Below are positions 1,300 through 18,103 of a DNA stretch of 64,000 nucleotides, piece after piece. The position numbers and the translations under genes were made by a program. Position 1 is the first letter of the stretch; each line of letters starts with the position of its first letter. The notes under the pieces are model-generated. The model was not told where the DNA came from. It did no database searches and was given only the letters and a program-made list of their open reading frames with translations. Source of the DNA: Candidatus Omnitrophota bacterium (GTDB taxonomy: Bacteria; Omnitrophota; Omnitrophia; Omnitrophales; Aquincolibacteriaceae); assembly GCA_030698625.1 (NCBI GenBank), contig JAUYMS010000046.1, positions 56,348-120,347 on the forward strand, in the 5' to 3' direction.

Positions 1300-2073
1300 T
1301 TAGTGAAGAGGGATGACCCTCCTGCGGGCCGATTCTCCCGGAATAAAGTCTTCCCCCTTGCTGATATACGAACATGAGAATAAGGGGCGGGATCTGGTTT
1401 TGGATAGGTTAGGATATGAACCGTGAATCGTGTTACCGTTCAATACGACGAGATCGCCCTTCTTGAAGGAAAGGTCGACGCGGCTGTATGTATTCGGAAC
1501 ATCAACAGTATTCCCGGGATTTGAGCCTTTTTCTTCGCGATAACTAACGGTCGGTTTTGATGGCAGCAGATCTTCGTTATGAGAGCCCGGGTAGATATAG
1601 AGGCTGCCGTTTTCCCTATCGGCATCGCCGAAGAAAAGGTTTGTTGTGATGTACTGCTTGTTGGCGTTGCGCGGGTAGGTGTTATCCTGATGGGGATTCC
1701 AGGCCTGAAGCGCGTATGGAGTCCCCACCCATTTGAAAAGCATTTGGCTCATGAGTCCCACGACCTCGCGTCCCTGGAGGGCTTCGAGAACGGAAACCAA
1801 TCTCGAATCCTTCAGGTAATTGCGAAAGAGTTTTGAAGTTGCCGTGACGCTTTCCGGCGAACTGTGAGGGGCCTGCCGCGCTAATTCTTCTTCTCGGTCC
1901 GCGTTCATAATCGCTGCAAAATCTTTGTCCGCATGCGGTGCGATGCTCTCAAGCAGTCTGTCCGCTTCCTCTCCCGATATCAGGTTTTGGACGACGAGGT
2001 AGCCGTTCTCATGATAAAAATCGTGCTGCTCCTTGCTAAGTTCGTATGTTTTTCGATCGGCTTCCATTGTCAT
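1300..2073 (-). CDS. Phytanoyl-CoA dioxygenase (PhyH) family Fe(II)/2-oxoglutarate oxygenase
   Basis: 257 aa; H-x-D ...H pattern (NPHQDNTY ... TIHGSYPN) and overall PhyH-like sequence. Confidence 0.55.
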   Translation of the reverse strand: MTMEADRKTYELSKEQHDFYHENGYLVVQNLISGEEADRLLESIAPHADKDFAAIMNADREEELARQAPHSSPESVTATSKLFRNYLKDSRLVSVLEALQGREVVGLMSQMLFKWVGTPYALQAWNPHQDNTYPRNANKQYITTNLFFGDADRENGSLYIYPGSHNEDLLPSKPTVSYREEKGSNPGNTVDVPNTYSRVDLSFKKGDLVVLNGNTIHGSYPNLSKTRSRPLFSCSYISKGEDFIPGESARRRVIPLH

Positions 2074-3485: not shown

Positions 3486-3769
3486 GGACTTTTTCCAGTT
3501 CTGGTATAGTGAAACCGCTGGCTTCCGGATACATATAATTGATCGATTATGGATGTAATCAGTATATGGTTATTATTATCGCTATATAATGGTCTAAATA
3601 GTCTATAGATATTATACCATACAACCGCCTCAAGGCAAGTCGGGCCTAGGAGCCGTATCCCTTGCAGGACAAGGGTTCTAGGTGGATTCAACGTCAAATT
3701 TCAGGGCAGACTCCACTACTAGATCTCGTCTAGGAGGGGTCTTAACTTGAGGGCCTTCTTAGAGGGGGG
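3486..3769. promoter_or_regulatory. AT-rich intergenic region, likely promoter/5' leader for the hemN-phyH-rSAM operon (minus strand)
   Basis: 284-nt AT-rich gap in a GC-rich genome, multiple TATAAT-like hexamers, GGAAAAAG RBS before hemN ATG. Confidence 0.35.
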
Positions 3770-4435
3770 TTATTTGAAGCGCTCTGAAAGGATGAGCTTG
3801 AGCGCCGCAAAGCCGTTTGCGAGAGGATTCAGCTTGCTTATGCCACCGATCCGCTTTGGCTCATCTCCCGGAATATCGGCCACTTTCCGCTTTTCCTTGG
3901 CGCACTTGATGGAGAAGTAGAGTTCGTAGCCCGCCAAGGGCGGTATGTCTTTGGTCGAAGAACGAAGCAGGTCGGTTCTCCAGGCCCGAAACATAACGAG
4001 CACGTCGGTGTAACGGCTGCCATAGAGAAGGTTGATCATGCTCGTAAACAGCCAGTTTCCAAAAGCGGTCACAATCGTGTCATCCGCGCTTTTGGCGCCT
4101 TTGGCGTAACGCGAGACGATCACCATATCGTAACCTTCTTTCATCTTTTCGACGAGCACCGGAATCAGTTCAGGGACAGAATTACCGTCGGGGCTGAAGG
4201 TAATAATAATATCATTGGTAATCTGCTCCACGGCATCCTGATAAGCGCCGGTACCGCCTTTGCGTGTTTGCTGCAATACGCGGATTCCCATTGATTCGGC
4301 AAATTCGGGGGTTCCATCGGTTGATGCACCATCGACCACAAGGATTTCATCCACCCACTCTCTTTTAATCCGCGGCAGGATTGCCTTCATGCCGTCAATT
4401 TCGTTTAATGTGGGGATGAGGAGAGTTGTTTTCAC
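3770..4435 (-). CDS. Family 2 glycosyltransferase, dolichol/polyprenyl-phosphate sugar synthase (DPM1)-like
   Basis: Track ORF 3770-4540 trimmed to GTG at 4433-4435 (VKTTLLIPTLNE..., GAGGGA RBS upstream); DxD-type GT2 N-terminal region; paralog of 16605-17276. Confidence 0.7.
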   Translation of the reverse strand: MKTTLLIPTLNEIDGMKAILPRIKREWVDEILVVDGASTDGTPEFAESMGIRVLQQTRKGGTGAYQDAVEQITNDIIITFSPDGNSVPELIPVLVEKMKEGYDMVIVSRYAKGAKSADDTIVTAFGNWLFTSMINLLYGSRYTDVLVMFRAWRTDLLRSSTKDIPPLAGYELYFSIKCAKEKRKVADIPGDEPKRIGGISKLNPLANGFAALKLILSERFK

Positions 4436-4439
4436 GAGC

Positions 4440-5432
4440 CTATTTCCCTCCCGGATCGTTGCTGAAGATGCTGTAACGCCGCGACTGATAGTCCGGGTTC
4501 TGGAGATACCATTCGACGGTTTCACGAATAGCGTTCTCAAGTGAGTACTTCGGTTCGAACCCGATTTGATCGCGAGCCTTTGTCGTATCCATCAGGCGTA
4601 TTTTATTGCCGGCAGGTTTGGACGCGTCCCACTCAAGTTTCGGAGATTGCGGCGCATACCTGCAAATAGTTTCAGCGACCTGTTTGATTGAGACTCCGAC
4701 CCCGCTGCCGAGGTTAAGCGGATCGCAAGGGGCAGCGGCCTCCATGGCCAGCATCATGCCGCGTGCGCAGTCCTTGCTATAAATGAAATCACGCACGGGC
4801 GTCCCGTCGCCCCAGACCACGAGGGGATCTTCTCCCGCACAAGCCCTGGCAATGAGCGCCGGAATAACCATAGCCGTATTAGGATTGAAGTTGTCATAAG
4901 GGCCGTAAATGTTAGCGGGGCGGACAATGACCGCTTGATAATCATATTGTTCCAGATAGGCTTCGCACTGCAATTCTCCGAAGCGCTTCGCCCAGGCCCC
5001 GTACCAGTCCGACGGGTGAGGGGGCTTGTCCCAAACCTCGCTTTCCTTAAAAATCTCCGCATCGGGGTAGACTCCGATCGTGCTCGTGAATAGGTACCGA
5101 GCCGCACCGCATTCGCGTGCGGCCTTTAACATGTGGAGGTTGATAAAGGCATTCCCTTCGAGAAAACGGGCTCCCTGGCTGCGGCCGACCCCGACCCCGC
5201 CCTTAATTCCTGCGAGATGGAAGATGAAATCGACTCCTTCGCATGCCTTCAGGCATGCTTCCCACCGAGTTAAGTCGACTTTCAAAAACTCAGCGCCTTC
5301 GGGAAGGCCGAAGGGATTATCGAGAGAGGCGATTCGCACGCGGGCTCCAGCCTCAGCAAGCATGTTGACCAGCGGGGTTCCGATCATTCCCGTGCCGCCG
5401 GTCACCAAGACCTTCTTGTTTTTGAAGTACAT
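4440..5432 (-). CDS. GDP-L-fucose synthase (Fcl)/GDP-colitose synthase (ColC)-like SDR epimerase-reductase
   Basis: VLVTGGTGMIG Rossmann motif; NIYGPYDNFNPNTAMVIPALI ... VWGDGTPVRDFIY closely parallels Fcl motifs. Confidence 0.65.
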   Translation of the reverse strand: MYFKNKKVLVTGGTGMIGTPLVNMLAEAGARVRIASLDNPFGLPEGAEFLKVDLTRWEACLKACEGVDFIFHLAGIKGGVGVGRSQGARFLEGNAFINLHMLKAARECGAARYLFTSTIGVYPDAEIFKESEVWDKPPHPSDWYGAWAKRFGELQCEAYLEQYDYQAVIVRPANIYGPYDNFNPNTAMVIPALIARACAGEDPLVVWGDGTPVRDFIYSKDCARGMMLAMEAAAPCDPLNLGSGVGVSIKQVAETICRYAPQSPKLEWDASKPAGNKIRLMDTTKARDQIGFEPKYSLENAIRETVEWYLQNPDYQSRRYSIFSNDPGGK

Positions 5433-5438
5433 AATACC

Positions 5439-6350
5439 TTAGCCGGGTTGAATTAGGTTTCTGATTTTGGCAAGGATGCGGGCGACGGTCGGCGTGCCAT
5501 TGTCGAGATGCGGGGCAAATCCCGCGGATCGATCCTCAAGTCCAAGCGTGTGAACGGGCACGGAAGTCTTCAACATCAACTCATGCGCGATTGATCGGGA
5601 AGGACCCGAGATTTCAAAATCAGAATCCAAGACAAGGCCGAGTCCTGTTTTTTTGAGCGAAGCAATCATGGTTTCCGAAATCGTGAACGGTTTTAACCAA
5701 AGGAGATGAATGAGATCGCATCGAATCCCTTCGCCATCGAGTTTCTTTATGGCCTCAAGGGCATTCAGTCTCGTCGCGCTGATCGCGATCAGCGTGATTT
5801 TCGCATCGGCTTCTATCGTGTCATTCATTTCGTAATCAATAGGAAAACTGCGGCGATGCTCGCTGATGTATAGCGGGTCATCGTGATCCATAAACGACTG
5901 CCAGGCTTCAAGCCACTCGCCGGGCGTCATGGGAGCGCAGACCGGCATGCCGGGCATGTGCATAACGAGGCCGTGGTGACTGGCGCTCGCGACAGGACCA
6001 ATGCCGCCCTCCATGGCGATGGATCGGATGAGAATGGGGCAGGGGACATTCCACATGTCCTTGGATTTTGCCGCGTAGTTAACGAGCGGCGCCGCGTTAT
6101 ACCACATGAACCCCTGGTAACGAATGACGTAAATAGGTCTGCGTCCGACGAGTGCCGCACCGACCGCAATGCCCGAACCAGAGACATCGGCCATGGAGAG
6201 CTCGACGATACCCTCTTCTTCGGTCATTTCAGGAACGGTCCCGCCAATCCACCCGACAGCTGTCACGCATTGGCCGAATAGAAGACCGTTGTTTTCCTTC
6301 AAATGTTTGCGCGTTGTCTCGCCTATTGTTTGCGCAACTGTTCTTGCCAT
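5439..6350 (-). CDS. TPP-dependent 2-oxoacid dehydrogenase E1 beta subunit-like (transketolase C-terminal type)
   Basis: 303 aa with E1-beta/transketolase pyrimidine-binding and C-terminal domains; directly follows E1-alpha gene; 28-nt overlap. Confidence 0.7.
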   Translation of the reverse strand: MARTVAQTIGETTRKHLKENNGLLFGQCVTAVGWIGGTVPEMTEEEGIVELSMADVSGSGIAVGAALVGRRPIYVIRYQGFMWYNAAPLVNYAAKSKDMWNVPCPILIRSIAMEGGIGPVASASHHGLVMHMPGMPVCAPMTPGEWLEAWQSFMDHDDPLYISEHRRSFPIDYEMNDTIEADAKITLIAISATRLNALEAIKKLDGEGIRCDLIHLLWLKPFTISETMIASLKKTGLGLVLDSDFEISGPSRSIAHELMLKTSVPVHTLGLEDRSAGFAPHLDNGTPTVARILAKIRNLIQPG

Positions 6351-7993
6351 AAGCTTTCCATGCTTTCGCGTGCCGCAGTTTCTATTTTCTTCACTTCAGT
6401 GGCCAGACCCAGTGTCTTGAGCTTCTTCTTAAAGAGTTCGAATCGGTTCCACTCCGGGGCGCCGTCGTTGCCTGTGCCCGCATGCCAGAGATGCCGGCAT
6501 GTCCTGATATTGATAAATGCGGGCAGGGTGTTGAGAAACTTTTCGACATAATGCGCAATAAGCCAGGGATCATCGGCTATATCCACGGCCTTCATGCCGA
6601 GAGACTCACAGACGTCTGCCATGCTCCAGGAACGTCTCTTCTCCACCTTAGTCAGAATCGAAAGATCGTTGTCTTCACAGATAAAGAGAACGGGAATTTT
6701 TTTTGTGGCGGCATAACCCATCGCGCCATAGACGTAATCTTCCTCGACAGAAGCGTCGCCGGTCACGGCCAGCACATTTTTACCGGAGCCCAAGGCCGCG
6801 CCAACCGCGATCGGCACCTGATCGCCCATTAACCCGCTGTGACCAAACATGCCGATTCTCGGATCGTGAATGGATGCCGATCCTCCCATGCCCCTTGCGC
6901 ATCCCGACTCACGATGCAACAACTCATCGATCAGCGCCTTAGGGTCACCGCCGAATGACAGGTAGTAGGAATGGCAACGGTGCTGTGCAAAGATCATGAA
7001 GTCGGTGGCGACCGTCGCGATGGCGGCGGGAATGTGTTCTTGGCCGACTGAAAGATAGATGGGCATCTTCATGAGTTTCTTGTCATAAGCCTTGGCCGCT
7101 TCAATTTCAAAGTATCGGTTGATGCAGGTCTGGCGAAAGATGTCCAGCGTCTTAGGAACGGAAAAACTCTTCGAGAGTCCTTTGATAAGGCCCAGTTCCG
7201 GACCGCGATCTCGGGTGGTCGAATTTCTGGTCCGTTCCGTACGTCTTTCTTGGGCGGTCTGGGCCGCTCGGTCATGTTTATCTTTCTGAATAGTCAGCAA
7301 TGTCATGCCCCGCGGGGCAGGGAAGACGGAGGCGACGCGGACCAGACTGTCGAGAGAACCGACTTCGCCCGGGCCGACCAAGACCTCACCTTTTTCGCTC
7401 GTGAGCGCTCCGCCGAGCACAGCAATGGTGTCGTCTCCCGGTCTCTTTTTTAGAAGCGAAAGGTCGGAAAGTTTTTCAATCATGATGATTCTGCCTTGAA
7501 CGTGATAGGCGTTGGGCTTTCCTTCCAGCGGCTGTTTGAAACGAATATACTCCTCTGGGATTGCTTCCATCTTGTCTTCGCCTTCATACGGCTTTCCCTG
7601 GCGCCCGTACTGATCCTGAAACCGGACGAGGTTGTCCTTGTCGCCGGCGGTCTCCACCTCCAGTAAAATGGCGCCCCCTTGCGATACGGCCTTTGTCGAA
7701 TGGAAAAGTCCTGGGCGAATAATGAGTTTGGTGACGGCCGACAGATGGGTGCTGTCCTTTAAAAATGAAATGTCGACCTCTCCTGCGAGGACAATCATTC
7801 CCGTCTTTTTGGTTGGGTGGCAGTGGAGGGAAGTCGCCGCCCCATACCGGATATGGAGATACCAGATGGCGACCTCATCGTTCTGGAAAATAAGGTACTC
7901 GTATCCCCACGGTTTGTTGACGATCACATTCTGGAAATCAACTTTATCCATAGGGCTACTCAGAACTCGAGTTAAGAAGTTGTTTGATCGCAT
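6323..7993 (-). CDS. Fusion protein: N-terminal PMI-type cupin domain + C-terminal TPP-binding E1 alpha subunit
   Basis: N-terminus KPWGYEYL...HCHP...LLEVETAGDKDNLVRFQDQYGR resembles the ManC/PMI type II C-terminal cupin; low-complexity linker; C-terminus has E1-alpha motifs (GMGGSASIHD, GDQVPIAVGAALG, TGDASVEEDYVYGAMG). Confidence 0.7.
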   Translation of the reverse strand: MRSNNFLTRVLSSPMDKVDFQNVIVNKPWGYEYLIFQNDEVAIWYLHIRYGAATSLHCHPTKKTGMIVLAGEVDISFLKDSTHLSAVTKLIIRPGLFHSTKAVSQGGAILLEVETAGDKDNLVRFQDQYGRQGKPYEGEDKMEAIPEEYIRFKQPLEGKPNAYHVQGRIIMIEKLSDLSLLKKRPGDDTIAVLGGALTSEKGEVLVGPGEVGSLDSLVRVASVFPAPRGMTLLTIQKDKHDRAAQTAQERRTERTRNSTTRDRGPELGLIKGLSKSFSVPKTLDIFRQTCINRYFEIEAAKAYDKKLMKMPIYLSVGQEHIPAAIATVATDFMIFAQHRCHSYYLSFGGDPKALIDELLHRESGCARGMGGSASIHDPRIGMFGHSGLMGDQVPIAVGAALGSGKNVLAVTGDASVEEDYVYGAMGYAATKKIPVLFICEDNDLSILTKVEKRRSWSMADVCESLGMKAVDIADDPWLIAHYVEKFLNTLPAFINIRTCRHLWHAGTGNDGAPEWNRFELFKKKLKTLGLATEVKKIETAARESMESLWQEQLRKQ

Positions 7994-8621
7994 TTGAATT
8001 TCTTAACTCGGCAAGCGACGCGAGCACTTCGTCAGCTCCGGTCAAATACTGTTCCTTCATAGTGGTACATAAGGCGATGCAGTAGGCGCCCGCCTTTTTG
8101 GCCGACTCAACGCCGAGCGGCGCATTTTCGATCACGATACAGTTTTCCGGTTTTATGCCCAATTTTTCCGCTCCGCGCAGATAAGGGTCTGCCGCAGGTT
8201 TTCCCTGTTTGGTGTCATCACCTGTGACCACGGCATTAAACTTATCGAGAAAGCCGGAGGGAACCGAACGCGCCAATCTGTCTTTGAGTGCGGCGGTAAC
8301 CACCGCGATCGGAACCTTTTTCGATATCAGCGTATCAAGCAATGCGTCAACCTCCGGATATAGGGCAAAACGATGATGTTCCAGATAATAGGCTTCTTTC
8401 TTGCGAACGACCTCGGCGGGATCAGGCGTCTTATGCGCGTGTTTCGAGAAAATCCGTTCCGGGATCTCATAAACGCGCAAACCCTCTAGGGGATAATAAT
8501 CTTCGGGCTGGATCGTTATGCCGTAATCCGACACTGCGGCTTTCCATGCCTCAAAATTATCTTCCATGGTCATCGCCAAAACCCCGTCAAAATCAAAAAG
8601 GATCGCATGAAATTTAATCAC
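7956..8621 (-). CDS. HAD-superfamily hydrolase (beta-phosphoglucomutase/phosphatase-like, subfamily IA)
   Basis: Track ORF trimmed to GTG (VIKFHAILFDFDGVLA...); DxDGV motif I, GDDTKQGKP motif. Confidence 0.6.
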   Translation of the reverse strand: MIKFHAILFDFDGVLAMTMEDNFEAWKAAVSDYGITIQPEDYYPLEGLRVYEIPERIFSKHAHKTPDPAEVVRKKEAYYLEHHRFALYPEVDALLDTLISKKVPIAVVTAALKDRLARSVPSGFLDKFNAVVTGDDTKQGKPAADPYLRGAEKLGIKPENCIVIENAPLGVESAKKAGAYCIALCTTMKEQYLTGADEVLASLAELRNSNAIKQLLNSSSE

Positions 8622-8632
8622 TTTAAACCCTG

Positions 8633-9163
8633 CTATACCTTTGCAGCTGCCCTTTTTTCGACCAATGCCAGTGCTTCCTTCATCCACGGGCCAAGGTGCT
8701 TATAGTGAGGGCATGAAACGATGTTGGCGTCTACAACAGCCGGCCCATCAACATAAGTCGCACCGGCATTGTTGATATCGTCTTTGATGCTGTAGTAACC
8801 GGAGATCTTTCGTCCCTTCACGACTTTTGCCGAGATCAAGAGCTGCGCGGCATGACAGATACTCGCGATGACTTTTCCGGTTGCATTGAAGTCTGAGATG
8901 ATCTTCAGGATTTCGGTGTCCTGGCGCATATATTCCATCGCCTTGGCGCCGCCTGGTAATATAAGAATGTCATAATCGTCGATTTTTACGTCCGGGATAT
9001 CGAGGGTCGGTACGATCTTAGAACCGATAATGCCGAGCACCAGTTCCTTTCCCCGGACCGCCACGTCCACTTCGTAACCTTCTTCCTGCACCCGGTAGTA
9101 GGGGTAGATGTACTCATGATCCTGAACAAGCTTTCCGGTAAGAATGAGTGCCCGTCTTTTCAT
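8633..9163 (-). CDS. DJ-1/PfpI family protein
   Basis: 176 aa; nucleophile elbow SICHAAQLL typical of PfpI/DJ-1. Confidence 0.65.
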   Translation of the reverse strand: MKRRALILTGKLVQDHEYIYPYYRVQEEGYEVDVAVRGKELVLGIIGSKIVPTLDIPDVKIDDYDILILPGGAKAMEYMRQDTEILKIISDFNATGKVIASICHAAQLLISAKVVKGRKISGYYSIKDDINNAGATYVDGPAVVDANIVSCPHYKHLGPWMKEALALVEKRAAAKV

Positions 9164-9180
9164 GGCTAGTGTCTCCGTTT

Positions 9181-10179
9181 CTATTGTGTTCCGCGCGGGG
9201 AGCTGCCTTTAGCGGCTTCCGGAGCCGGAAAATGTTTTCGGTACCAGGCCAGCGTCCTTTCAATGCCGATGTCCAAGGATGTCTCCGGCGTCCAGTCGAA
9301 GACATCCTTGGCCCGGTCGATGCTGACCTTTAATTTGAATCCTATGCTGGGTTTGGAATGGTCGTATTCAATTGTTAACTTACGCCCGGAATGCTCGATG
9401 ATCTTTTCCACGAGCCGGGTTACGGATATCGATTCTCCGGAACCGACATTGACGAGCTCAAAGGGCTGCTCCTGATTCTCAATCGCGAGGGCCATAAAAT
9501 TAACAAGATCTTCCACGTAAAGAAAATCGCGCTCGTCCGACCCGTCGCCCCAGACGACGACCTTACCGTCTTTGGCCGACATGACCTTGGCCATTGTGGC
9601 ACCAAAAACATGTGCCGTTTCCAGGTCAAATTTGTCGCGGGGCCCATAGATGTTCGTATGGCGAATCACGGTAAATTTCGTCGGGCTGATGCGCGAATAA
9701 AATTCGCACATCTTCTCATTGTAGACCTTCGTCCAACCTACTCCGAAATATTTATCGATCATTTCACCGTTAAAATCCTCTTCCTTGACCGGAGCATCCT
9801 GCTCTTTGTACATGGTTGTGCAGCTTAGGAAAACCACATGCTTGATTTTCGCTTCGTAGCAGGCCCTCAGGATATGCGCATTCATAACCGCGTTATCGGT
9901 AACGTGAAGGTAAGGTTTGTTGATGATGACATTGGCCCCGGAAGTCGTGGCAGCCGCCTGAATCACAATATCTTTTCCCTGAATAGCGCGCGCGGCATCT
10001 TCGGGGTTTCTGAGATCAGCATGAATGAATTCCACCGGCCCTTTCTGATTGTTGATCAGAGGCGGGACCTTGCGGTATGTGGCGAAGAGCTCAAAGGCCG
10101 TGTCTCCAAGGAATCTCTCCACCAAACTTCTTCCTATAAATCCGGTACTTCCGCAAACGAGGACTTTTTGCCTTTTCAT
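9181..10179 (-). CDS. NAD-dependent nucleotide-sugar epimerase/dehydratase (extended SDR)
   Basis: Start set to MKRQKVLVCGSTGFIGRSL (ATGA overlap with upstream gene); YxxxK region and SDR fold. Confidence 0.65.
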   Translation of the reverse strand: MKRQKVLVCGSTGFIGRSLVERFLGDTAFELFATYRKVPPLINNQKGPVEFIHADLRNPEDAARAIQGKDIVIQAAATTSGANVIINKPYLHVTDNAVMNAHILRACYEAKIKHVVFLSCTTMYKEQDAPVKEEDFNGEMIDKYFGVGWTKVYNEKMCEFYSRISPTKFTVIRHTNIYGPRDKFDLETAHVFGATMAKVMSAKDGKVVVWGDGSDERDFLYVEDLVNFMALAIENQEQPFELVNVGSGESISVTRLVEKIIEHSGRKLTIEYDHSKPSIGFKLKVSIDRAKDVFDWTPETSLDIGIERTLAWYRKHFPAPEAAKGSSPRGTQ

Positions 10180-11159
10180 TCTTCTCTCACTCTCCGGCGC
10201 CATTCGTCCAGCAGGTGAATGACGCTCTCTTCGAAATCGATTTTGGGTTCCCAACCGGTTGCCTTGTGAAACTTATCCGTATTGGGAATTTGAAGTGTCA
10301 CATCAGCCGGTCTCAGAAGAGCCGGGTCCTGCCGTGAAGGAATCTTCTTCTTCGCATGCTTTTTGAGGAGCTCCAAAAAATCACCTACGGAAATCGTTTT
10401 CTTACCACCGATATTATAAACCTCGCCCGGCTCACAATGTAAAATAGCGATCCAATAAGCCTCCATGGCGTCGCGGACGTCGATGAGGGTGCGGATGGAA
10501 TCCAAGTTGCCGTGTAAGAGCTCTTTCTGCAGTCCTGCCTCGATGCGAGCCACCTGCCTGGCGAAGGATGTCGCGAAGAGGTCAGTCCGCCGCGGATTGA
10601 TGTAGGCAAACATGCGCGTCCGGATCATCTTCATCCCGTAGCTTCTATAATAAGTCCACGCCAGCTGGTCTTGAGCCGTTTTTGAGACGGCATAAGGGCT
10701 TGAAGGACAGATGGGACAGTCTTCGGTGATTGGGACATTCTTGGGGTCTACCTGTCCGTAAACTTCTGAGGTGGAACAGTGCTGGATGATGGGGTTGAGT
10801 TTGAGGATGCGTATCGCCTCAAACAGATTGAGTGTTCCCATGATATTGTTTTCCATCACGGCGCGCGGGTAGAGAAAAGAAGCCCGCACATTGGCATTCG
10901 AAGCGAGGTGAAAGATGACGTCGGGTTTTACCTTCTCCAGCACTCCGAGTACGGAAGAGAGGTCGTTCAAATCACATTCATGCAGGCGGCATTTGTCTTT
11001 GACAGCCGCAAGATTTCGCGGGGCGCTCGTGCTGTGCCACCGCATAATACCGTGAATTTCAACTTTCTGATTCTGGGCCAGATACTCAGCCAGGTAGCTT
11101 CCGCCCGATCCGGAAATTCCCGTTATCAATGCCCGTTTAATTTTTTTTGCATCGATCAT
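10176..11159 (-). CDS. gmd: GDP-mannose 4,6-dehydratase family (GDP-sugar 4,6-dehydratase)
   Basis: KRALITGISGSGGSYLAEYL matches the Gmd N-terminus (ALITGITGQDGSYLAEFLL); GNLDSIRTLIDVRD resembles the Gmd GNLDAKRDWG region. Confidence 0.6.
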   Translation of the reverse strand: MIDAKKIKRALITGISGSGGSYLAEYLAQNQKVEIHGIMRWHSTSAPRNLAAVKDKCRLHECDLNDLSSVLGVLEKVKPDVIFHLASNANVRASFLYPRAVMENNIMGTLNLFEAIRILKLNPIIQHCSTSEVYGQVDPKNVPITEDCPICPSSPYAVSKTAQDQLAWTYYRSYGMKMIRTRMFAYINPRRTDLFATSFARQVARIEAGLQKELLHGNLDSIRTLIDVRDAMEAYWIAILHCEPGEVYNIGGKKTISVGDFLELLKKHAKKKIPSRQDPALLRPADVTLQIPNTDKFHKATGWEPKIDFEESVIHLLDEWRRRVREE

Positions 11160-11215
11160 AAGAGACTCTTCTAAGCAGTTTCATTCTCTCGAAAGACGTT
11201 TAAACGTTTTCGGTT

Positions 11216-12199: not shown

Positions 12200-12207
12200 G
12201 CTATCTC

Positions 12208-13263
12208 CTAAAAGGGACCCTTGAAGCGATTTTCCCAAGAATAAAAACTTTCACCGGAAAGATCTGTTTCGTCTAATCCAAGCATCTGTTCAACCGTGCG
12301 AATGATAGTGACGGCTGAGGGATAAAATAAATTCTCAAGCGGACGAGTCGTCGGGCAGGGTGTGTGAGCGAAGCCCAGGCGTTTGACCGGAGATTTCAGA
12401 TCTCCAAAACAGGCCTCGGAAACCTGCGCAGCGACCTCAGCGCCGAATCCGCAAAAGGCCCAGTCGTAGTCTGCCACGATACAGCGCTTCGTTTTTTTTA
12501 CGGAATCGATAATGGTAGCAGAGTCAAGCGGGGCCAGCGTTCGGACATCGACGATCTCGACCGATACGTTTCGCTTCTCCAGGACCTCACGCGCCTTCAG
12601 GGCCTCGACCATCATCCACGAAGTCGTCACGATGCTTACGTCTTTACCCTCGCGTTTCACTAGGGCCTTTCCGAGCGGGATCTTAAAGTTAAAATCGACA
12701 TCGCCATAGGCGTCATAAAGCCAGCGGTGCTCCAGGACAATAACCGGATCGTCGTCTTGAACGGCAGACCGCAGCAGGCTGTAGGCGTCTTGCGGGTTCG
12801 TGGGCATAACGACCTTAAGGCCCGGGATATGGGCAAAAACGCTCTGCATGGTTTTACTGTGTTGGGCGCCTTGGCCCCAGCCACGACCGATGACGGCACG
12901 GATCACAATCGGGAGTTTGAGTTTTCCTCCTGAGAGATACCTGGCGCATGAGATCATGTTAGCGATCTGATTCATAGCGAGCATCATGAAATCAACACGG
13001 ATATGGACATGGACCGGCCGTAGTCCGCTGATGGCCGCACCGAGGGCCAGACCCGTCATCGCATCTTCAGATAGGGGAGTGGAAAAACAGCGCCTTGGGC
13101 CGAATTTCTCAACGAGCCCGACCGTGCTTCCAAAGATCCGTTTGTGGTCGGCGACATCCAAACCGTAGACGAAGACCTTGTCGTCGGCTTGCATTTCGTC
13201 GACAAGCGCGCGATTCAGCGCTTCTTTGAATTGGATCTGGGTTTTTATGGCGCTCTCCGACAT
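12208..13263 (-). CDS. TPP-dependent 2-oxoacid dehydrogenase E1 beta subunit-like (second copy)
   Basis: 351 aa E1-beta/transketolase C-terminal architecture. Confidence 0.7.
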   Translation of the reverse strand: MSESAIKTQIQFKEALNRALVDEMQADDKVFVYGLDVADHKRIFGSTVGLVEKFGPRRCFSTPLSEDAMTGLALGAAISGLRPVHVHIRVDFMMLAMNQIANMISCARYLSGGKLKLPIVIRAVIGRGWGQGAQHSKTMQSVFAHIPGLKVVMPTNPQDAYSLLRSAVQDDDPVIVLEHRWLYDAYGDVDFNFKIPLGKALVKREGKDVSIVTTSWMMVEALKAREVLEKRNVSVEIVDVRTLAPLDSATIIDSVKKTKRCIVADYDWAFCGFGAEVAAQVSEACFGDLKSPVKRLGFAHTPCPTTRPLENLFYPSAVTIIRTVEQMLGLDETDLSGESFYSWENRFKGPF

Positions 13264-13271
13264 GGTTTCGC

Positions 13272-14462
13272 TTAGTTGATGTCGTTTAATAGCGAACAGA
13301 GTTTCTTGATCTTGCTCACTTCAAGGTCCGGATAATTACCGATATAAAAACCGAGAAAATGGATCAGCTCCACCTGCGGGTACTTATCAAACTGGTCGCC
13401 GACAAGATGCCTCAAATACGGCTGACGCAATTGATTGCCACCACCGGATAAACCGCGGCGGTACTCCACACCGCAATCGCCGAGCAGAGTTGTCACCTGA
13501 TTGACCCGGTCTTTGAAAGATTCTTGAAGCACTAGGGTGAAGGCATAGTTGCTTGCGCCTTCGACCTCAAAATCGGCCCGGTACTTTTTGGGGTCCAGGG
13601 AGCTCAAAAATATGTTCAGGTTGTAATTTCTTTGCTCGATCTCTTTTTCCAGGCGAGGCAGATGATGGCGGCCGATCACCGCATTTATTTCAGTGCTGCG
13701 CACATTGTAAGCGGGAAAGGCGAATATGAATTCCGGGTTCAGGTCTTTGTGTCGGGTCGCATAGAAAGACTTAATTTCCTCAGAGGTTGATTCCCGCACC
13801 AGACCGTGCGAGCGTAACATACGTACTGTCTGATACACCTTTTCGTCATTTGTGCAGACCATACCGCCTTCTATCGTGCTCAGGTGATGTGCGTAATAAA
13901 AGGAAAAGTTTGAGGCCCAGCCGTGAGAACCCACCCGCTTGCCCTTGAATGTGGCGCCGTGCGATTCACAGGCGTCCTCGATTAGGGGAATGCCCCGTTC
14001 TTTTAAACCGTCGATGAGACGGTCCGTCAGAGCGTTATAACCAAGAATATGTGTCAGAAAGACGGCCTTCGTATTCGGGGTGATTTTTTTAAAGACTTCC
14101 TCATCGTCGAGGCCGAGTCGGCGAGGGTGAATATCCGCAAAGACGGGTTGGAAGCCGCATTGAAAAACCGCGGCAATATCGGAAACCCAGGTGAGCGGGG
14201 GGACGATGATTTCACCCGGCCCGAAGATCTCGCGCAATGCTGCAAGCGTCAAAAGATTGGCCGAAGAGCCTGAATTAACGAACACGCTATAGCGTACCCC
14301 GACCCACTCGGCCCATTCGCTCTCAAATTGTTGCACTTCCTCAGACTGAGTCAAACGCGGATTTCCCTTTAAAAAACGAATGACGGCATTGATGTCGTCT
14401 TTAGAAATATTATTACTCATAAGCGGCCAGTTCAGGCCGGAAGGTTTTTCAGAGACGGTCAT
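13272..14462 (-). CDS. DegT/DnrJ/EryC1 family PLP/PMP enzyme of the sugar 3-dehydratase type (ColD/E1-like, His replaces the Schiff-base Lys)
   Basis: 396 aa DegT-family fold; the FSF..K lysine position reads NFSFYYAHHLSTIEGG, the signature of ColD/E1/SpnQ 3-dehydratases; no C-terminal Fe-S Cys motif, so ColD-like. Confidence 0.6.
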   Translation of the reverse strand: MTVSEKPSGLNWPLMSNNISKDDINAVIRFLKGNPRLTQSEEVQQFESEWAEWVGVRYSVFVNSGSSANLLTLAALREIFGPGEIIVPPLTWVSDIAAVFQCGFQPVFADIHPRRLGLDDEEVFKKITPNTKAVFLTHILGYNALTDRLIDGLKERGIPLIEDACESHGATFKGKRVGSHGWASNFSFYYAHHLSTIEGGMVCTNDEKVYQTVRMLRSHGLVRESTSEEIKSFYATRHKDLNPEFIFAFPAYNVRSTEINAVIGRHHLPRLEKEIEQRNYNLNIFLSSLDPKKYRADFEVEGASNYAFTLVLQESFKDRVNQVTTLLGDCGVEYRRGLSGGGNQLRQPYLRHLVGDQFDKYPQVELIHFLGFYIGNYPDLEVSKIKKLCSLLNDIN

Positions 14463-14464
14463 GG

Positions 14465-15433
14465 TTAACTTAACACTCCTGTGTAGAGGTCATCGATTCC
14501 GGGAAAGGCGTCTGTCCGCGCCTTTGCGACACTCGCATCTATTTCCTTGTCAATGTCCGCCGCAATTTTCTCTAACGCCGCTTCCTTTGCCCCCAAGCCG
14601 AGCACCCAGTCTTTGGCCGCCAGTACGGGGTCCACGGCCTCGAGTTCCGCGGCGCTCGGTTTGGGCCGGTAGCCGGCCGCATAATCCAGCCGAACACCGA
14701 CATGGCTGCGAAAGCGATGATACTCGCATTTTAGAAAGCCAGGCTTCCCATCCTTGGCCATTTTGGCCAAAAGTCCTGTGGCGGCTTCGTGGATCAAGTC
14801 GACTCGGTGCCCTGGCGCTTCACCGTAGTGACATTCGAATCCTGCGACCGCGTCTTTCGCTGAACGGAATCCTTGCCGCTCTTTCTTGCCGGTGTGAATG
14901 GCCAGGTTATTGTCTTCGCAGACAAAGAGAACAGGGAGTTTGTGGAGGGAAGCAAAGTTGATGCTTTCCCAGAAAGCGCCTTCCTCCATGGCGCCGTCAC
15001 CGAAAAAACTCGCGACAACATTTTTCTTGTTCTGATAAACATTTGCGAATGCCGCACCGACCGCAACAGGGATTGTGGTGGCAACCACCGCTGACGTCAG
15101 AAGCAGGCCGCGTTCAGGTGCCGTCAAATGCATGGAACCCGCTTTGCCGTGGGCACAACCCGTGACTTTGCCGTAAAGTTCCGCAAAGAAGGTATCGGTA
15201 TCTCCCGTCAGCATAAGGTAATGGGCGTGGTTGCGGTAGGTTCCGAATACCTGGGGCGAACTCCCGAGAGCTGCGATTACGCCGACGGCAATGGCCTCAG
15301 CTCCGATGTGCAGGTGCACAGGGGTTTTGATCTCATCAGTGGCATATTCGGAGCAGATTCTATCCTCACACTTGCGGATGAGGAGAATCTTGTGATAAAA
15401 CTGGATGGCGTTTTTCGCGGAAAGCCGGCTCAC
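14465..15433 (-). CDS. TPP-dependent 2-oxoacid dehydrogenase E1 alpha subunit-like (second copy)
   Basis: 322 aa; GSMH and FFGDGAMEEGAFWESINFA TPP-binding motifs. Confidence 0.7.
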   Translation of the reverse strand: MSRLSAKNAIQFYHKILLIRKCEDRICSEYATDEIKTPVHLHIGAEAIAVGVIAALGSSPQVFGTYRNHAHYLMLTGDTDTFFAELYGKVTGCAHGKAGSMHLTAPERGLLLTSAVVATTIPVAVGAAFANVYQNKKNVVASFFGDGAMEEGAFWESINFASLHKLPVLFVCEDNNLAIHTGKKERQGFRSAKDAVAGFECHYGEAPGHRVDLIHEAATGLLAKMAKDGKPGFLKCEYHRFRSHVGVRLDYAAGYRPKPSAAELEAVDPVLAAKDWVLGLGAKEAALEKIAADIDKEIDASVAKARTDAFPGIDDLYTGVLS

Positions 15434-16428
15434 TGGAAATTGTTGGGTTCATAGATGACGATTTTGCTTCCCGTAAAATCCAATCGGAAATTCACATGAA
15501 TCAAATCCTTAAGCTTTTCACGAATTTCGGGTTGGCGATCGGGTCGCGCGAATAAAAGCATAAAACCTCCGCCGCCTGCACCCAGGAGTTTCCCCCCGTA
15601 GGCACCGGCGCTCTTGGCGGCTTCATAGATCGTATCCAGTGCCGGTGTGGTCACCTTATCGGATAAAGATCGCTTGTACTGCCAATATTCATGTAGGAGC
15701 TTCCCGAAGTTTTCTATCGGAATCTTCGGATTAATCAGAATCTCCATGCCTTCTTTGGCCATCTGCTGCATAATTTGCATCTCCCGCTTACGTGCTTCCA
15801 TGTTTGCGATGTGATGCTTTGCGATTTCGGAGGCGATGCGCGTAAATCCCGTGAAGACCAGCATCATATGTTTCTGAAAATCCTCGATGCGGTCTTTGGC
15901 CAAGATGAGCGGGGTGATATCAAAACTATCGTCAGCATGAAACTGAATGACGTTCAGACCACCGTGAGTCGTGAGTACTTGATCCTGGGAACCGACATGC
16001 TCCTTGAGAATATCCTGCTCCATGTGAACCGCCTCGGTGGCCAGATCCTTCTTGGAAATCATCTGCCCCTTGAGAGCATGGATGGCGTGGATCAGCCCCA
16101 CCGTGAATGAAGAACTAGATCCCAATCCGGAGCGAGCCGGCAGATCCCCGTCATGGTGGATTTCCAGGCCATTTTTGACGTCCATGGTATTCAAGATGCC
16201 GCGCACGGCAGGGTGCTTGATGTCCTTAACTTCATTGACTGAATCGATTTGCGAGTAAACGATGCGGTGCTTGAAGTCGAAGAAGGGGGGCAAATACCGG
16301 CAGCTTATGTAGCAAAACTTATCAATGGTTGAGCCGAGCACCATACCGCCATATTTGCGGTACCAAGCAGGATAATCGGTGCCTCCGCCAAAAAACGAAA
16401 TTCGAAAAGGTGTCCTACTGACAATCAT
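15430..16428 (-). CDS. GHMP-family sugar kinase (heptose-7-phosphate kinase HddA-like)
   Basis: RISFFGGGTDYP and PARSGLGSSSSF GHMP motifs. Confidence 0.65.
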   Translation of the reverse strand: MIVSRTPFRISFFGGGTDYPAWYRKYGGMVLGSTIDKFCYISCRYLPPFFDFKHRIVYSQIDSVNEVKDIKHPAVRGILNTMDVKNGLEIHHDGDLPARSGLGSSSSFTVGLIHAIHALKGQMISKKDLATEAVHMEQDILKEHVGSQDQVLTTHGGLNVIQFHADDSFDITPLILAKDRIEDFQKHMMLVFTGFTRIASEIAKHHIANMEARKREMQIMQQMAKEGMEILINPKIPIENFGKLLHEYWQYKRSLSDKVTTPALDTIYEAAKSAGAYGGKLLGAGGGGFMLLFARPDRQPEIREKLKDLIHVNFRLDFTGSKIVIYEPNNFQ

Positions 16429-18028: not shown

Positions 18029-18103
18029 GGTTGTCTATCATGTACGTCCGGCCCAGGTATTCCCTTAACTAAGAATGTCGCGTAAAATGTCGTTAGAGTA
18101 ATC

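What the first reader, a model, noticed from the sequence alone, without database searches (positions are those of the whole stretch)
6323..7993. Gene fusion of a PMI-type cupin domain to a TPP-binding E1 alpha subunit
The N-terminal about 110 aa (KPWGYEYL...HCHP...VRFQDQYGR) look like the C-terminal cupin of type II mannose-6-phosphate isomerase/GDP-mannose pyrophosphorylase. A low-complexity linker joins this to a complete E1-alpha. The cupin could act as a sugar keto-isomerase or epimerase delivering substrate to the TPP site. I do not know of this architecture elsewhere, and the second E1-alpha copy at 14465-15433 lacks the cupin.
Basis: partly seen in the sequence, partly recalled or inferred. 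Interest (0 to 1): 0.65.

Follow-up and report, generated by a model that had tools for sequence, protein, structure and literature searches.

The report
Cupin module fused to thiamine enzyme
A real, conserved gene fusion joins a mannose-isomerase-like cupin module to the thiamine-binding subunit of a divergent E1-type enzyme in a sugar-nucleotide gene cluster, and it exposes a widespread, uncharacterised three-part enzyme set (DJ-1 protein, cupin module, thiamine enzyme) that probably builds unusual cell-surface sugars.

Summary
The ORF exists at 6323-7993 on the minus strand; the likely start is 7951, giving 542 aa. It is a genuine fusion, not a frameshift. Eighteen other protein clusters and six independent genome assemblies carry the same in-frame architecture.

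It is a conserved 225-aa module: a PMI-II-like cupin with three invariant His, followed by a second beta-rich domain. A variable linker then leads into a compact, divergent but full-fold E1-alpha. Its partner, a divergent E1-beta, follows with a 28-nt overlap.

Elsewhere the two halves are usually separate adjacent genes in the order DJ-1/PfpI, cupin module, E1-alpha*, E1-beta*. Relatives of the cupin module were found in 242 species across many phyla, including SAR11.

In other lineages the same cupin module sits next to, or is fused to, an AHAS/YerE-type thiamine enzyme. It is also found fused to DJ-1. These independent fusions show tight functional coupling.

The surrounding genes (4,6-dehydratase, nucleotidyltransferase, aminotransferase, reductases) point to thiamine-dependent C-C bond formation on a keto-sugar nucleotide. 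The cupin probably does enolisation chemistry on the same sugar, but its exact reaction is untested. I rate this a new variant of a known kind, of moderate interest.

The parts
6323..7951 (-). Fusion ORF: cupin module, linker and E1-alpha*. 542 aa from the ATG at 7951, with the stop codon at 6323-6325. An alternative upstream ATG at 7993 would give 556 aa.
   Evidence: P0001 is 100% identical. Eighteen other clusters share the full-length architecture at 61-66% identity and 96-97% coverage (one truncated at 88%).
7592..7951 (-). Domain 1 (aa 1-120): a PMI-II-like cupin barrel. H43, H45 and H84 are invariant, T50 replaces the usual Glu ligand, and the C-terminal LVRFxDxYGR motif is present.
7280..7591 (-). 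Domain 2 (aa 121-224): a conserved beta-rich domain with two short helices and no conserved His. It may be a degenerate second barrel.
   Evidence: AF2 pLDDT is above 90. The best whole-model matches are two-barrel cupins, but TMq is only about 0.4. hhalign finds no sequence similarity to domain 1.
7187..7279 (-). Variable low-complexity linker (aa 225-255), rich in K, R, T and Q.
   Evidence: Its length and sequence vary among the fused homologues, and pLDDT is 61-66. It corresponds to the C-terminal tail of the stand-alone cupin protein plus the N-terminal tail of stand-alone E1-alpha*.
6326..7186 (-). E1-alpha* (aa 256-542): a compact, divergent ThDP-binding subunit. The GDA...EDN Mg/ThDP motif and the R-x-H, GGS and W-H-A-G motifs are conserved.
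5439..6350 (-). E1-beta*: the divergent beta subunit partner (Transket_pyr plus Transketolase_C). It overlaps the 3' end of the fusion by 28 nt. An invariant Asp sits where the cofactor-activating Glu is expected.
   Evidence: The same 28-nt overlap occurs in L001 and L002.
8633..9163 (-). DJ-1/PfpI family protein, a constant neighbour of the cupin module.
   Evidence: Pfam E 1e-42. NCBIfam PfpI subfamily scores 150.6 bits against a cutoff of 139. It is present beside the module in most loci and is fused to the cupin module in P0364.
7956..8687 (-). HAD-IA (beta-phosphoglucomutase-like) hydrolase. It lies between DJ-1 and the fusion in the fused group and in its closest unfused relative, L009.
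10176..11159 (-). GDP-mannose 4,6-dehydratase-like SDR, the probable source of the 4-keto-6-deoxy sugar nucleotide.
   Evidence: Pfam GDP_Man_Dehyd E 6e-72. NCBIfam gmd scores 161 bits, which is below its equivalog cutoff.
12208..15433 (-). A second, canonical-like E1 pair (E1-alpha at 14465-15433, E1-beta at 12208-13263) split by a DegT aminotransferase gene (13272-14462). It carries no cupin.
15430..16428 (-). GHMP sugar kinase (HddA-like), found in 36 of 60 E1-type loci.

Best explanation
**What it is (shown).** The ORF is a bona fide fusion protein. A 225-aa accessory module, made of a PMI-II-like cupin with a three-His site plus a second beta domain, is joined by a flexible linker to the alpha (ThDP/Mg-binding) subunit of a divergent E1-type enzyme. 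This family is called alpha-KADH2 in the ThDP literature.

**How it is assembled (inferred).** The fusion pairs with the overlapping downstream E1-beta* gene to form an alpha2beta2 ThDP enzyme. Together with the nearby DJ-1/PfpI protein it forms a conserved three-part unit.

**What it does (inferred).** There is no E2 or E3, so it is not a dehydrogenase complex. I think it decarboxylates a 2-oxo acid, most likely pyruvate. It then adds the ThDP-bound acyl-anion equivalent to the carbonyl of a GDP-4-keto-6-deoxy sugar (hexose or heptose) made by the cluster's 4,6-dehydratase. The known YerE-type and E1-type sugar C-branching enzymes work this way.

**Role of the cupin (inferred).** The cupin module performs enediol-type chemistry on the same labile keto-sugar, either keto-isomerisation or epimerisation, directly before or after the C-C bond is formed. 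Fusion, or translational coupling in other genomes, keeps the two active sites together.

**Basis of each step.** The fusion, the conserved module, the independent fusions and the sugar-nucleotide context are shown. The donor, the acceptor, the cupin reaction and the DJ-1 role are inferred.
For: **The fusion is real.**
- The ORF is uninterrupted.
- Eighteen other 90% clusters from NCBI, JGI, ENA and Logan share the full architecture at 61-66% identity.
- Six GTDB assemblies (L003-L008) carry it in frame, with linkers of differing length.
- The closest unfused relative, L009, has the two genes overlapping by 4 nt, so one small indel would fuse them.

**Fold.** Both halves have pLDDT of about 91. 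Cupin matches are and E1-alpha matches.

**Functional coupling.**
- The stand-alone 225-aa cupin protein (49% identical, E 1e-78) lies directly next to E1-alpha*/E1-beta* and DJ-1 in about 50 loci from many phyla.
- In 16 loci without E1* genes it lies next to an AHAS/YerE-type ThDP enzyme plus DJ-1.
- In 5 of those 16 loci it is fused to that enzyme, giving ORFs of 852-896 aa.
- The 1.84-billion representative library also holds DJ-1-cupin, cupin-AHAS and E1-alpha*-E1-beta* fusions.

**Sugar-nucleotide context.**
- In the window: a GMD-like dehydratase, DegT, three Fcl-like SDRs, a GHMP kinase, a HAD and glycosyltransferases.
- Elsewhere: GmhA, GmhB, HddA and HddC-like genes, and NTP-transferase plus 4,6-dehydratase in the AHAS-type loci.

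**Precedent.**
- Both YerE-like and E1-alpha/beta (alpha-KADH2) ThDP enzymes are established C-branching enzymes of deoxy-keto sugars (PMC12247030, PMC9306805, PMC4802897).
- CapF is a cupin epimerase fused to the next keto-sugar enzyme (PMC3699295), and its structure 4yrd appears among the fold hits.

**ThDP site.** The ThDP/Mg motif and the other E1-alpha motifs are invariant.
Against: - No activity can be tested here.
- The cupin lacks the usual Glu metal ligand, which is an invariant Thr. It matches neither the RmlC nor the FdtA Pfam families that hold the known sugar-nucleotide epimerases and keto-isomerases.
- E1-beta* carries an invariant Asp where every canonical E1-beta has the cofactor-activating Glu. 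The ThDP chemistry may therefore be unusual or weak.
- The window already has a second, more canonical E1 pair that could be the real C2-branching enzyme. That would leave a different role for the fused pair.
- The role of DJ-1 is unexplained.
- The GMD-like gene scores below NCBIfam's equivalog cutoff, so the nucleotide and the sugar are not certain.
- The full-length model has pTM 0.65, so no confident contact between the cupin module and E1-alpha is predicted.
Confidence: 0.55

Rival explanations
1. Sugar-phosphate route. The ThDP enzyme acts like DXP synthase or transketolase. It extends an aldose phosphate by two carbons to give a higher ketose phosphate. The PMI-like cupin then isomerises ketose phosphate to aldose phosphate. 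The GHMP kinase, the HAD phosphatase and a nucleotidyltransferase activate the product. This parallels the GDP-heptose and lincosamide GDP-octose routes.
For: - PMI-II cupins act on sugar phosphates, and the family's closest specific Pfam model is MannoseP_isomer.
- The GHMP kinase and the HAD lie beside the fusion. The fused group has no SIS (GmhA) isomerase gene within reach.
- E1-alpha* gives weak DXP_synthase_N hits.
Against: - The GHMP kinase is absent from all 16 AHAS-type loci and from 24 of 60 E1-type loci, although the DJ-1/cupin/ThDP triad is constant.
- Thirteen loci have both a GmhA-like SIS isomerase and the cupin module.
- AHAS/YerE-type partners are known for ketone acceptors on NDP-sugars, not for sugar phosphates (PMC9306805).
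Confidence: 0.15
2. The cupin module is not an enzyme of the sugar. It is a non-catalytic, substrate-binding, regulatory or scaffolding subunit of the ThDP enzyme, for example one that docks the nucleotide sugar or DJ-1.
For: - The canonical Glu ligand is absent.
- The second domain has no conserved polar cluster.
- The module accompanies two structurally different ThDP enzymes, as an adaptor might.
Against: H43, H45, H84, E98, E100, K105, R110, D113, R117, Y122 and E123 are invariant across 77 members that are only 44-60% identical. That pattern is typical of an active site. The cupin barrel itself is intact, with pLDDT above 90.
Confidence: 0.12
3. The cupin acts on the 2-oxo acid donor or on a dicarbonyl, as BacB, AerE or KdgF do. 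The triad of DJ-1 (glyoxalase III or deglycase), cupin and ThDP enzyme prepares or detoxifies a small reactive carbonyl compound rather than handling the sugar.
For: - Whole-model fold hits include BacB, AerE and KdgF.
- The DJ-1/PfpI family includes glyoxalase III and deglycases.
- ErwE-type enzymes need specially made functionalised 2-oxo acid donors (PMC9306805).
Against: The fold matches to BacB and AerE are poor (TMq 0.38-0.40, rmsd about 14 A). The nearest sequence family is PMI-II, not those enzymes. No aldolase or other donor-forming gene is a constant neighbour.
Confidence: 0.1
4. The cupin is a three-His, O2-dependent dioxygenase of the cysteine dioxygenase or Dke1 type. It oxidatively cleaves or hydroxylates the acyloin product of the ThDP enzyme.
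For: The site has three His and no Glu, as in cysteine dioxygenase. Cysteine dioxygenase structures appear among the fold hits (4qm9 and 3eqe, 21% identity). P0330 gives a weak CDO_I hit.
Against: The module occurs in strict anaerobes, including Geobacteraceae, Desulfuromonadales, Thermodesulfobacteriota and Methanoregula, as well as in Omnitrophota and CPR lineages. The specific sequence signature (PWG..., LVRFxDxYGR) is that of PMI-II.
Confidence: 0.05
5. Artefact: a sequencing frameshift or misassembly merged two separate genes, or the E1 pair is an ordinary central-metabolism 2-oxo acid dehydrogenase E1.
For: The closest unfused relative has the two genes overlapping by 4 nt, so a single-base error could mimic a fusion. 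This is a MAG contig.
Against: - The same in-frame fusion occurs in 18 other clusters and 6 independent assemblies from different phyla and studies, with different linker lengths.
- No Met lies near the junction to start a separate E1-alpha*.
- No E2 or E3 genes are in the cluster. The E1 pair is highly divergent, scoring 112 bits against an equivalog cutoff of 394, and it is embedded in glycan genes.
Confidence: 0.02

Closest known systems
E1-alpha/beta (alpha-KADH2) ThDP enzymes that C-branch deoxy-keto sugars: AviB1/AviB2-type, paulomycin Plm8/9, the aldgamycin pair and kibdelomycin KbDH-alpha/beta (PMC12247030, PMC4802897, PMC4425429)
   Same: - A heteromeric E1-alpha plus E1-beta pair with no E2 or E3.
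- It is encoded inside a sugar-nucleotide cluster with a 4,6-dehydratase, reductases and an aminotransferase.
- The ThDP/Mg motif is conserved.
   Different: - Those enzymes carry no cupin module and are not described with a DJ-1 partner.
- They are fairly close to PDH and acetoin-DH E1, whereas E1-alpha*/E1-beta* are compact (about 290 and 303 aa) and very divergent.
- E1-beta* has Asp in place of the cofactor-activating Glu.
- Those enzymes come from actinomycete antibiotic clusters with dTDP-type sugars. This one is in an environmental glycan cluster with GDP-type genes.
YerE/ErwE-type (AHAS-like) ThDP carboligases of acyl-branched sugars (PMC9306805)
   Same: The same cupin module and DJ-1 accompany, or are fused to, AHAS-like ThDP enzymes in other lineages. 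Those loci have an NTP-transferase plus 4,6-dehydratase context like yerE clusters.
   Different: - The ThDP fold family differs from the window's enzyme.
- The described YerE and ErwE clusters are not reported with cupin or DJ-1 partners. The paper lists an aldolase, a dehydrogenase and a reductase instead.
C-terminal cupin of type II phosphomannose isomerase / GDP-mannose pyrophosphorylase (Pfam PF01050)
   Same: - It is the best specific Pfam family for the N-terminal domain.
- Shared signatures are PWG-x-Y/E, SL-x-x-H and the C-terminal (L/I)VR-x-x-D-x-YGR.
- The fold is a cupin barrel.
- In PMI-II, as here, the cupin is one domain of a fusion with another sugar-nucleotide enzyme.
   Different: - The window protein scores below the gathering cutoff.
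- The Gln/His-His-Glu-His ligand set is replaced by His-His-Thr-His.
- An extra 100-aa domain follows the cupin.
- The fusion partner is a ThDP enzyme, not a nucleotidyltransferase, and the cupin is N-terminal rather than C-terminal.
CapF of Staphylococcus aureus: an SDR plus cupin two-domain enzyme (PMC3699295; PDB 4yrd)
   Same: A cupin domain is fused to the enzyme of the neighbouring step of a 4-keto sugar nucleotide pathway. In CapF these steps are C3 epimerisation followed by C4 reduction.
   Different: - The partner domain is an SDR reductase, not a ThDP subunit.
- The domain order is reversed.
- The structural match is weak (TMq 0.41, rmsd 4.5 A over 122 columns).

Membership tests
Cupin superfamily | Small double-stranded beta-helix (jelly-roll) barrel | tested here: met
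   The AF2 model has pLDDT 91. Foldseek matches single-barrel cupins at TMt 0.70-0.82 and rmsd 1.4-1.9 A over 90-105 residues (3h8u, KdgF 5fq0, PMI 7zvy).
Cupin superfamily | Two cupin motifs carrying the metal ligands: H-x-H-x3-4-E in motif 1 and H in motif 2 | tested here: inconclusive
   H43, H45 (motif 1) and H84 (motif 2) are invariant in 77 members. The Glu position is an invariant Thr (T50). Metal binding cannot be tested here.
PMI type II C-terminal cupin (Pfam PF01050 MannoseP_isomer) | Score at or above Pfam's gathering threshold (23.6 bits) | tested here: not met
   The window protein scores 17.5 bits as the full ORF and 19.7 bits as the module alone. At family level, 70 of 77 members hit at E <= 0.01 (best 6e-7). 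P0364 scores 48 bits, above the cutoff. The family is therefore a divergent relative, not a clean member.
PMI type II C-terminal cupin (Pfam PF01050 MannoseP_isomer) | Mannose-6-phosphate/fructose-6-phosphate isomerase activity | not testable with these tools
   This needs an enzyme assay.
E1 component alpha subunit of 2-oxo acid dehydrogenases / alpha-KADH2 (Pfam PF00676 E1_dh) | Pfam E1_dh above threshold, and the E1-alpha fold | tested here: met
   The score is 54.2 bits against a cutoff of 22, covering model positions 9-182 of 300 only. The fold matches human PDH and BCKDH E1-alpha over about 300 columns at TMt about 0.65.
E1 component alpha subunit of 2-oxo acid dehydrogenases / alpha-KADH2 (Pfam PF00676 E1_dh) | ThDP/Mg2+ binding motif GDG-X(25-30)-NN | tested here: met
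   G398-D399-A400 ... E426-D427-N428 is invariant in 25 aligned sequences. The third position is Ala instead of Gly.
E1 component alpha subunit of 2-oxo acid dehydrogenases / alpha-KADH2 (Pfam PF00676 E1_dh) | A partner beta subunit supplying the pyrimidine-binding domain, with the conserved Glu that activates ThDP | tested here: inconclusive
   The adjacent E1-beta* (5439-6350) has Transket_pyr and Transketolase_C. The Glu position is an invariant Asp in 56 of 56 homologues.
Pyruvate dehydrogenase E1 alpha (NCBIfam TIGR03182 equivalog), i.e. a dehydrogenase complex component | Equivalog score cutoff, and E2/E3 partner genes | tested here: not met
   The score is 111.8 bits against a cutoff of 393.85. 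None of the cluster's genes scanned (1300-19678) has a lipoyl or 2-oxoacid_dh domain.
Sugar C-branching ThDP enzymes (functional class; YerE-like and alpha-KADH2) | Encoded in a cluster with an NDP-sugar 4,6-dehydratase that makes the keto-sugar acceptor | tested here: met
   A GMD-like gene lies at 10176-11159. 4,6-dehydratase-like genes are present in 22 of 60 E1-type and 8 of 16 AHAS-type loci within 10 kb.
Sugar C-branching ThDP enzymes (functional class; YerE-like and alpha-KADH2) | Demonstrated carboligation of a 2-oxo acid donor onto a keto-sugar nucleotide | not testable with these tools
   This needs in vitro reconstitution or analysis of the glycan structure.

The most novel reading that the evidence does not exclude
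DJ-1/PfpI, the 225-aa cupin module and a ThDP enzyme (of either the E1 or the AHAS type) together form a previously unrecognised three-enzyme machine. It would be a physical complex that makes a new class of C-branched or chain-extended nucleotide sugars. It would use unusual ThDP chemistry, with Asp instead of the universal activating Glu in the E1-beta* form. It would be widespread in uncultured bacteria and some archaea, including SAR11, CPR and DPANN lineages. The window's fusion would be one of several Rosetta-stone fusions that reveal it.
Probability: 0.35. Interest if true: 0.75.

Novelty: new variant of a known kind. Interest (0 to 1): 0.55.

Why it matters
**Hidden architecture.** ThDP-dependent C-branching of sugars is known from a few antibiotic and LPS pathways. 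Here the branching-type enzyme comes with two constant, unstudied partners. In databases the architecture is effectively invisible, because the cupin scores below Pfam thresholds. The fused proteins are labelled only 'thiamine pyrophosphate-dependent enzyme' or 'pyruvate dehydrogenase E1 alpha'.

**Guide for experiments.** The fusions say which proteins to co-express:
- cupin with E1-alpha*;
- cupin with an AHAS-type enzyme;
- DJ-1 with cupin;
- E1-alpha* with E1-beta*.

**Scope.** The module occurs in at least 242 species-level genomes across many phyla, including abundant marine SAR11. Solving its chemistry would therefore annotate a recurrent block of surface-glycan 'dark matter'. It could also supply new carboligases for making tertiary alcohols.

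**ThDP catalysis.** If the invariant Glu-to-Asp change in E1-beta* still supports catalysis, it would interest people who study ThDP enzyme mechanisms.

Tried and rejected
- **Frameshift or assembly artefact:** rejected, because independent assemblies carry the same in-frame fusion.
- **Ordinary PDH or acetoin-DH E1:** rejected. The equivalog score is far below its cutoff, there are no E2 or E3 genes, and the gene sits among glycan genes.
- **Second domain of the N-module as a diverged duplicate of the cupin:** hhalign of domain 1 against domain 2 gave probability below 1%. 'Bicupin' therefore rests only on weak whole-model Foldseek matches (TMq about 0.4), and I treat it as tentative.
- **Profile search of the N-module against PDB sequences:** it found only generic Cupin_2 proteins (best E 8e-4), with no functional lead.
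- **Single origin of the fusion:** an NJ tree of E1-alpha* domains did not recover the fused forms as an exclusive clade. A single origin is likely, since they share one 50% cluster and the DJ-1-HAD-fusion synteny, but it is unproven.
- **Literature searches:** searches for cupin with ThDP and nucleotide sugar, for YerE with cupin, and for GDP-6-deoxy-heptose with thiamine found no description of this module.
- **Unexplained search behaviour:** the N-terminal query did not list the fused proteins among its best 120 hits, although they are 60-66% identical. I take this to be a quirk of candidate selection and drew no conclusion from it.

Full report

Coordinates 6323-7993 hold one uninterrupted ORF on the minus strand, 556 aa from the first ATG. 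The probable start is the ATG at 7951. It lies 4 nt after the TAG stop of the upstream HAD gene. NCBI's own product starts there (P0001, 542 aa, 100% identical, 'MAG: Candidatus Omnitrophota bacterium, thiamine pyrophosphate-dependent enzyme'), and so do all homologues.

Pfam finds the following on the ORF:
- E1_dh at 54 bits (cutoff 22), on aa 295-462.
- TPP_enzyme_C.
- MannoseP_isomer, the C-terminal cupin of type II PMI/GMP, on aa 24-127, at 17.5 bits and below its threshold (E 0.005).

NCBIfam agrees. It gives weak PDH E1-alpha hits, far below the equivalog cutoffs, and weak GMP_PMI hits on aa 25-131.

**2. Is it a real fusion?**

Yes.
- A search of 5.8 billion clusters returned 18 further proteins of 488-556 aa. 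They cover 96-97% of the query (one truncated member covers 88%) at 61-66% identity. They come from NCBI, JGI, ENA and Logan, and carry labels including Acidobacteriota and Omnitrophota.
- In the alignment both halves are conserved, while the junction (aa 225-255) varies in length and sequence.
- Six species-representative genomes (L003-L008) carry the same in-frame ORF.
- In the closest unfused relative, L009, the two genes overlap by 4 nt. A small indel therefore suffices to fuse them.
- No Met lies near the junction in the window protein.

In the library of 1.84 billion 50%-identity representatives, only one representative (P0019) has this architecture. The fusion is real but confined to one narrow group. 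An NJ tree of the E1-alpha* domains did not resolve that group as an exclusive clade, so a single origin is likely but not proven.

**3. Anatomy**

The N-terminal unit is 225 aa, not about 110.

*Stand-alone homologues.* The 225-aa unit is homologous to a separate protein of 220-240 aa. There are 972 hits at E <= 1e-3. It is 49% identical to the L001 protein, at E 1e-78.

*Predicted structure.* AF2 on a 77-sequence alignment gives pLDDT 91 and pTM 0.88, with two beta-rich domains.

*Domain 1 (aa 9-101) is a cupin.*
- It superposes on single-barrel cupins at TMt 0.70-0.82 and rmsd 1.4-1.9 A. These include the T. kodakarensis PMI (7zvy) and KdgF.
- 70 of 77 family members hit Pfam MannoseP_isomer and 66 of 77 hit Cupin_2.
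- One relative scores 48 bits on both models, above both cutoffs.
- The invariant residues include H43, C44, H45, H84, E98, E100, K105, R110, D113, R117, Y122 and E123.
- The usual motif-1 Glu ligand is an invariant Thr.

*Domain 2 (aa 121-224).* It is conserved and confidently modelled, but it has no conserved His. It shows no profile similarity to domain 1. The best whole-model matches are two-barrel cupins (OxdC, quercetinase, BacB, AerE), but only at TMq about 0.4. I therefore call it 'possibly a degenerate second barrel'.

*E1-alpha* (aa 256-542).*
- It has the full E1-alpha fold, with about 300 aligned columns to human PDH and BCKDH E1-alpha at TMt about 0.65.
- It keeps the GDA...EDN ThDP/Mg motif and other E1-alpha motifs.
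- It is compact and divergent. Its best PDB sequence hit is at E 1e-19 over aa 17-186 of 288.
- It is 31% identical to the window's second E1-alpha.

*Whole protein.* The full-length model has pLDDT 91.6 but pTM 0.65. The linker has low confidence, so the mutual position of the two halves is not predicted.

*Partner subunit.* The downstream gene 5439-6350 is the matching divergent beta subunit. It overlaps the fusion by 28 nt, exactly as in the unfused loci L001 and L002.

**4. What the surroundings and relatives show**

A scan of one genome per species found 242 genomes encoding a relative of the cupin module, and 80 loci were fetched. The genomes include:
- Omnitrophota, Acidobacteriota and Geobacteraceae (among them the cultured Geomonas limicola);
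- Nitrospiraceae, Elusimicrobia, Planctomycetia, Verrucomicrobia, Chloroflexota/SAR202 and Binatia;
- many Pelagibacteraceae (SAR11) and Thiothrix;
- CPR phyla, Nanoarchaeota, Woesearchaeota and Methanoregula.

I mapped the window's proteins onto these loci and clustered all ORFs. The picture is consistent:
- **E1-type loci.** Sixty loci have E1-alpha*/E1-beta* with the cupin module and a DJ-1/PfpI gene. The usual order is DJ-1, cupin, E1-alpha*, E1-beta*. In Geobacteraceae it is DJ-1, E1-alpha*, E1-beta*, cupin.
- **AHAS-type loci.** Sixteen loci have no E1* genes. There the cupin module lies directly beside an AHAS/YerE-type ThDP enzyme (TPP_enzyme_N/M/C; NCBIfam acetolactate-synthase-like), again with DJ-1.
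- **Fusion to the AHAS-type enzyme.** In five of those sixteen loci (L063, L073, L075, L079, L080) the cupin module is fused to that enzyme. The ORFs are 852-896 aa with almost no linker.
- **Further fusions in the representative library**: cupin-AHAS (P0307, P0341, P0351), DJ-1-cupin (P0364) and E1-alpha*-E1-beta* (P0241, P0246).

The three components are therefore linked by fusions in every pairing. The cupin module is the constant partner of two ThDP enzymes of different architecture. This is strong evidence for tight functional coupling, probably physical.

**5. Pathway context**

The window cluster lies entirely on the minus strand, from about 1300 to 18000. It encodes:
- a GHMP (HddA-like) kinase;
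- a second, more canonical E1-alpha/E1-beta pair, split by a DegT aminotransferase gene;
- three Fcl-like SDRs and a GDP-mannose-4,6-dehydratase-like SDR;
- DJ-1 and a HAD-IA hydrolase;
- the fusion and E1-beta*;
- small GT2 proteins, a HemN-like radical SAM enzyme and a PhyH dioxygenase.

A PMT_2/ArnT-like transferase lies alongside on the plus strand.

Related E1-type loci add GmhA, GmhB and HddC-like genes, which make up the GDP-heptose route, together with B12-radical SAM enzymes. AHAS-type loci carry NTP-transferase, 4,6-dehydratase-like SDRs, Ldh_2, HAD and DegT, but never the GHMP kinase.

The common denominator is a nucleotide-activated 4-keto-6-deoxy sugar. No E2 or E3 genes are present.

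**6. Mechanism**

Both YerE-like enzymes and E1-alpha/beta (alpha-KADH2) enzymes are established catalysts of one reaction class. They decarboxylate a 2-oxo acid and add the acyl-anion equivalent to the keto group of a deoxy-keto sugar nucleotide (PMC12247030 section 2.2; PMC9306805; paulomycin, PMC4802897 and PMC4425429).

The same cupin module accompanies both enzyme types here. The simplest reading is that the fused E1* enzyme belongs to this reaction class, and that the cupin works on the shared element, the keto-sugar.

PMI-type cupins catalyse enediol chemistry. CapF shows that a cupin epimerase can be fused to the next enzyme of a 4-keto-sugar pathway (PMC3699295; 4yrd among the fold hits). 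I therefore favour keto-isomerisation or epimerisation of the GDP-keto-sugar, immediately before or after the C-C bond forms.

My confidence by level:

| Claim | Confidence |
|---|---|
| The fusion is real | about 0.95 |
| The module belongs to ThDP-dependent sugar modification | about 0.75 |
| The specific cupin chemistry | about 0.3 |

Cautions:
- The Glu ligand is missing.
- There is no match to the RmlC or FdtA families.
- E1-beta* has an invariant Asp where the cofactor-activating Glu should be (56 of 56 homologues).
- The second, more canonical E1 pair in the same cluster may be the true C2-brancher.
- DJ-1's role is unknown.

Rivals are listed separately in this report: a sugar-phosphate chain-extension route, a non-catalytic adaptor, action on the 2-oxo acid donor, and a three-His dioxygenase.

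**7. Comparison and novelty**

The protein works like the known E1-type sugar-branching enzymes and meets the structural criteria of an E1-alpha subunit. It fails the PDH equivalog test.

Its cupin is a divergent relative of the PMI-II cupin and not a clean member. The window protein scores below the Pfam cutoff, and its ligand set is altered.

I found no paper describing a cupin or DJ-1 partner of ThDP sugar-branching enzymes. The literature tool covers only open-access text, so this absence is weak evidence.

I class the finding as a new variant of a known kind. The fusion itself is a narrow lineage feature. The more interesting result is the widespread, uncharacterised DJ-1/cupin/ThDP triad that it reveals.

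Noticed in passing
window 5439-6350 (-): In E1-beta*, the position of the universal ThDP-activating Glu of E1 beta subunits is an invariant Asp. The local sequence is 'ELSMAD', against 'STPLSE' in the window's canonical copy. All 56 homologues share it, and the ungapped register agrees.
   Followed up: partly
window 12208-15433 (-): A second, canonical-like E1-alpha (14465-15433) and E1-beta (12208-13263) are separated by a DegT aminotransferase gene (13272-14462). In other loci the equivalent pair is adjacent.
   Followed up: partly
L063:9920-12538, L073:9920-12514, L075:9911-12514, L079:9920-12478, L080:2086-4776: The same cupin module is independently fused to an AHAS/YerE-type ThDP enzyme, giving ORFs of 852-896 aa. 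Each is followed by a second AHAS-type gene and DJ-1.
   Followed up: yes
proteins P0364, P0241, P0246, P0335: Further fusion architectures of module parts: DJ-1/PfpI with cupin (387 aa), E1-alpha* with E1-beta* (619-628 aa), and a cupin with a GNAT acetyltransferase (327 aa).
   Followed up: partly
window 6323-6350; L001 8891-8918; L002 8891-8918: The E1-beta* start overlaps the end of the E1-alpha* or fusion gene by exactly 28 nt in distant genomes. This suggests conserved translational coupling.
   Followed up: no
window 4440-5432, 9181-10254, 11216-12238 (-): Three paralogous GDP-L-fucose-synthase-like SDR genes lie in one cluster.
   Followed up: no
window 19738-21333 and 21714-23378 (-): Two tandem Cpn60/TCP-1 family chaperonin genes (531 and 554 aa).
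   Followed up: no
window 1-1284 (-): An ORF cut off by the left edge of the window groups with the B12-binding radical SAM genes that flank the module in other loci.
   Followed up: no
window 27119-33211: A second glycan-type gene group: GT2, a 596-aa protein with a HAD-like segment, a polysaccharide deacetylase, Methyltransf_24 and a B12-binding radical SAM enzyme.
   Followed up: no
window 1300-3485 (-) and related loci: An O2-dependent PhyH dioxygenase and an O2-independent HemN-like radical SAM gene sit side by side. Across loci, PhyH and radical SAM or AKR genes vary with lineage, which may reflect aerobic and anaerobic versions of a tailoring step.
   Followed up: no
output: The search with the N-terminal 225 aa did not list the fused homologues P0002-P0019 among its best 120 hits, although they are 60-66% identical. 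This is probably an artefact of word-index candidate selection.
   Followed up: no
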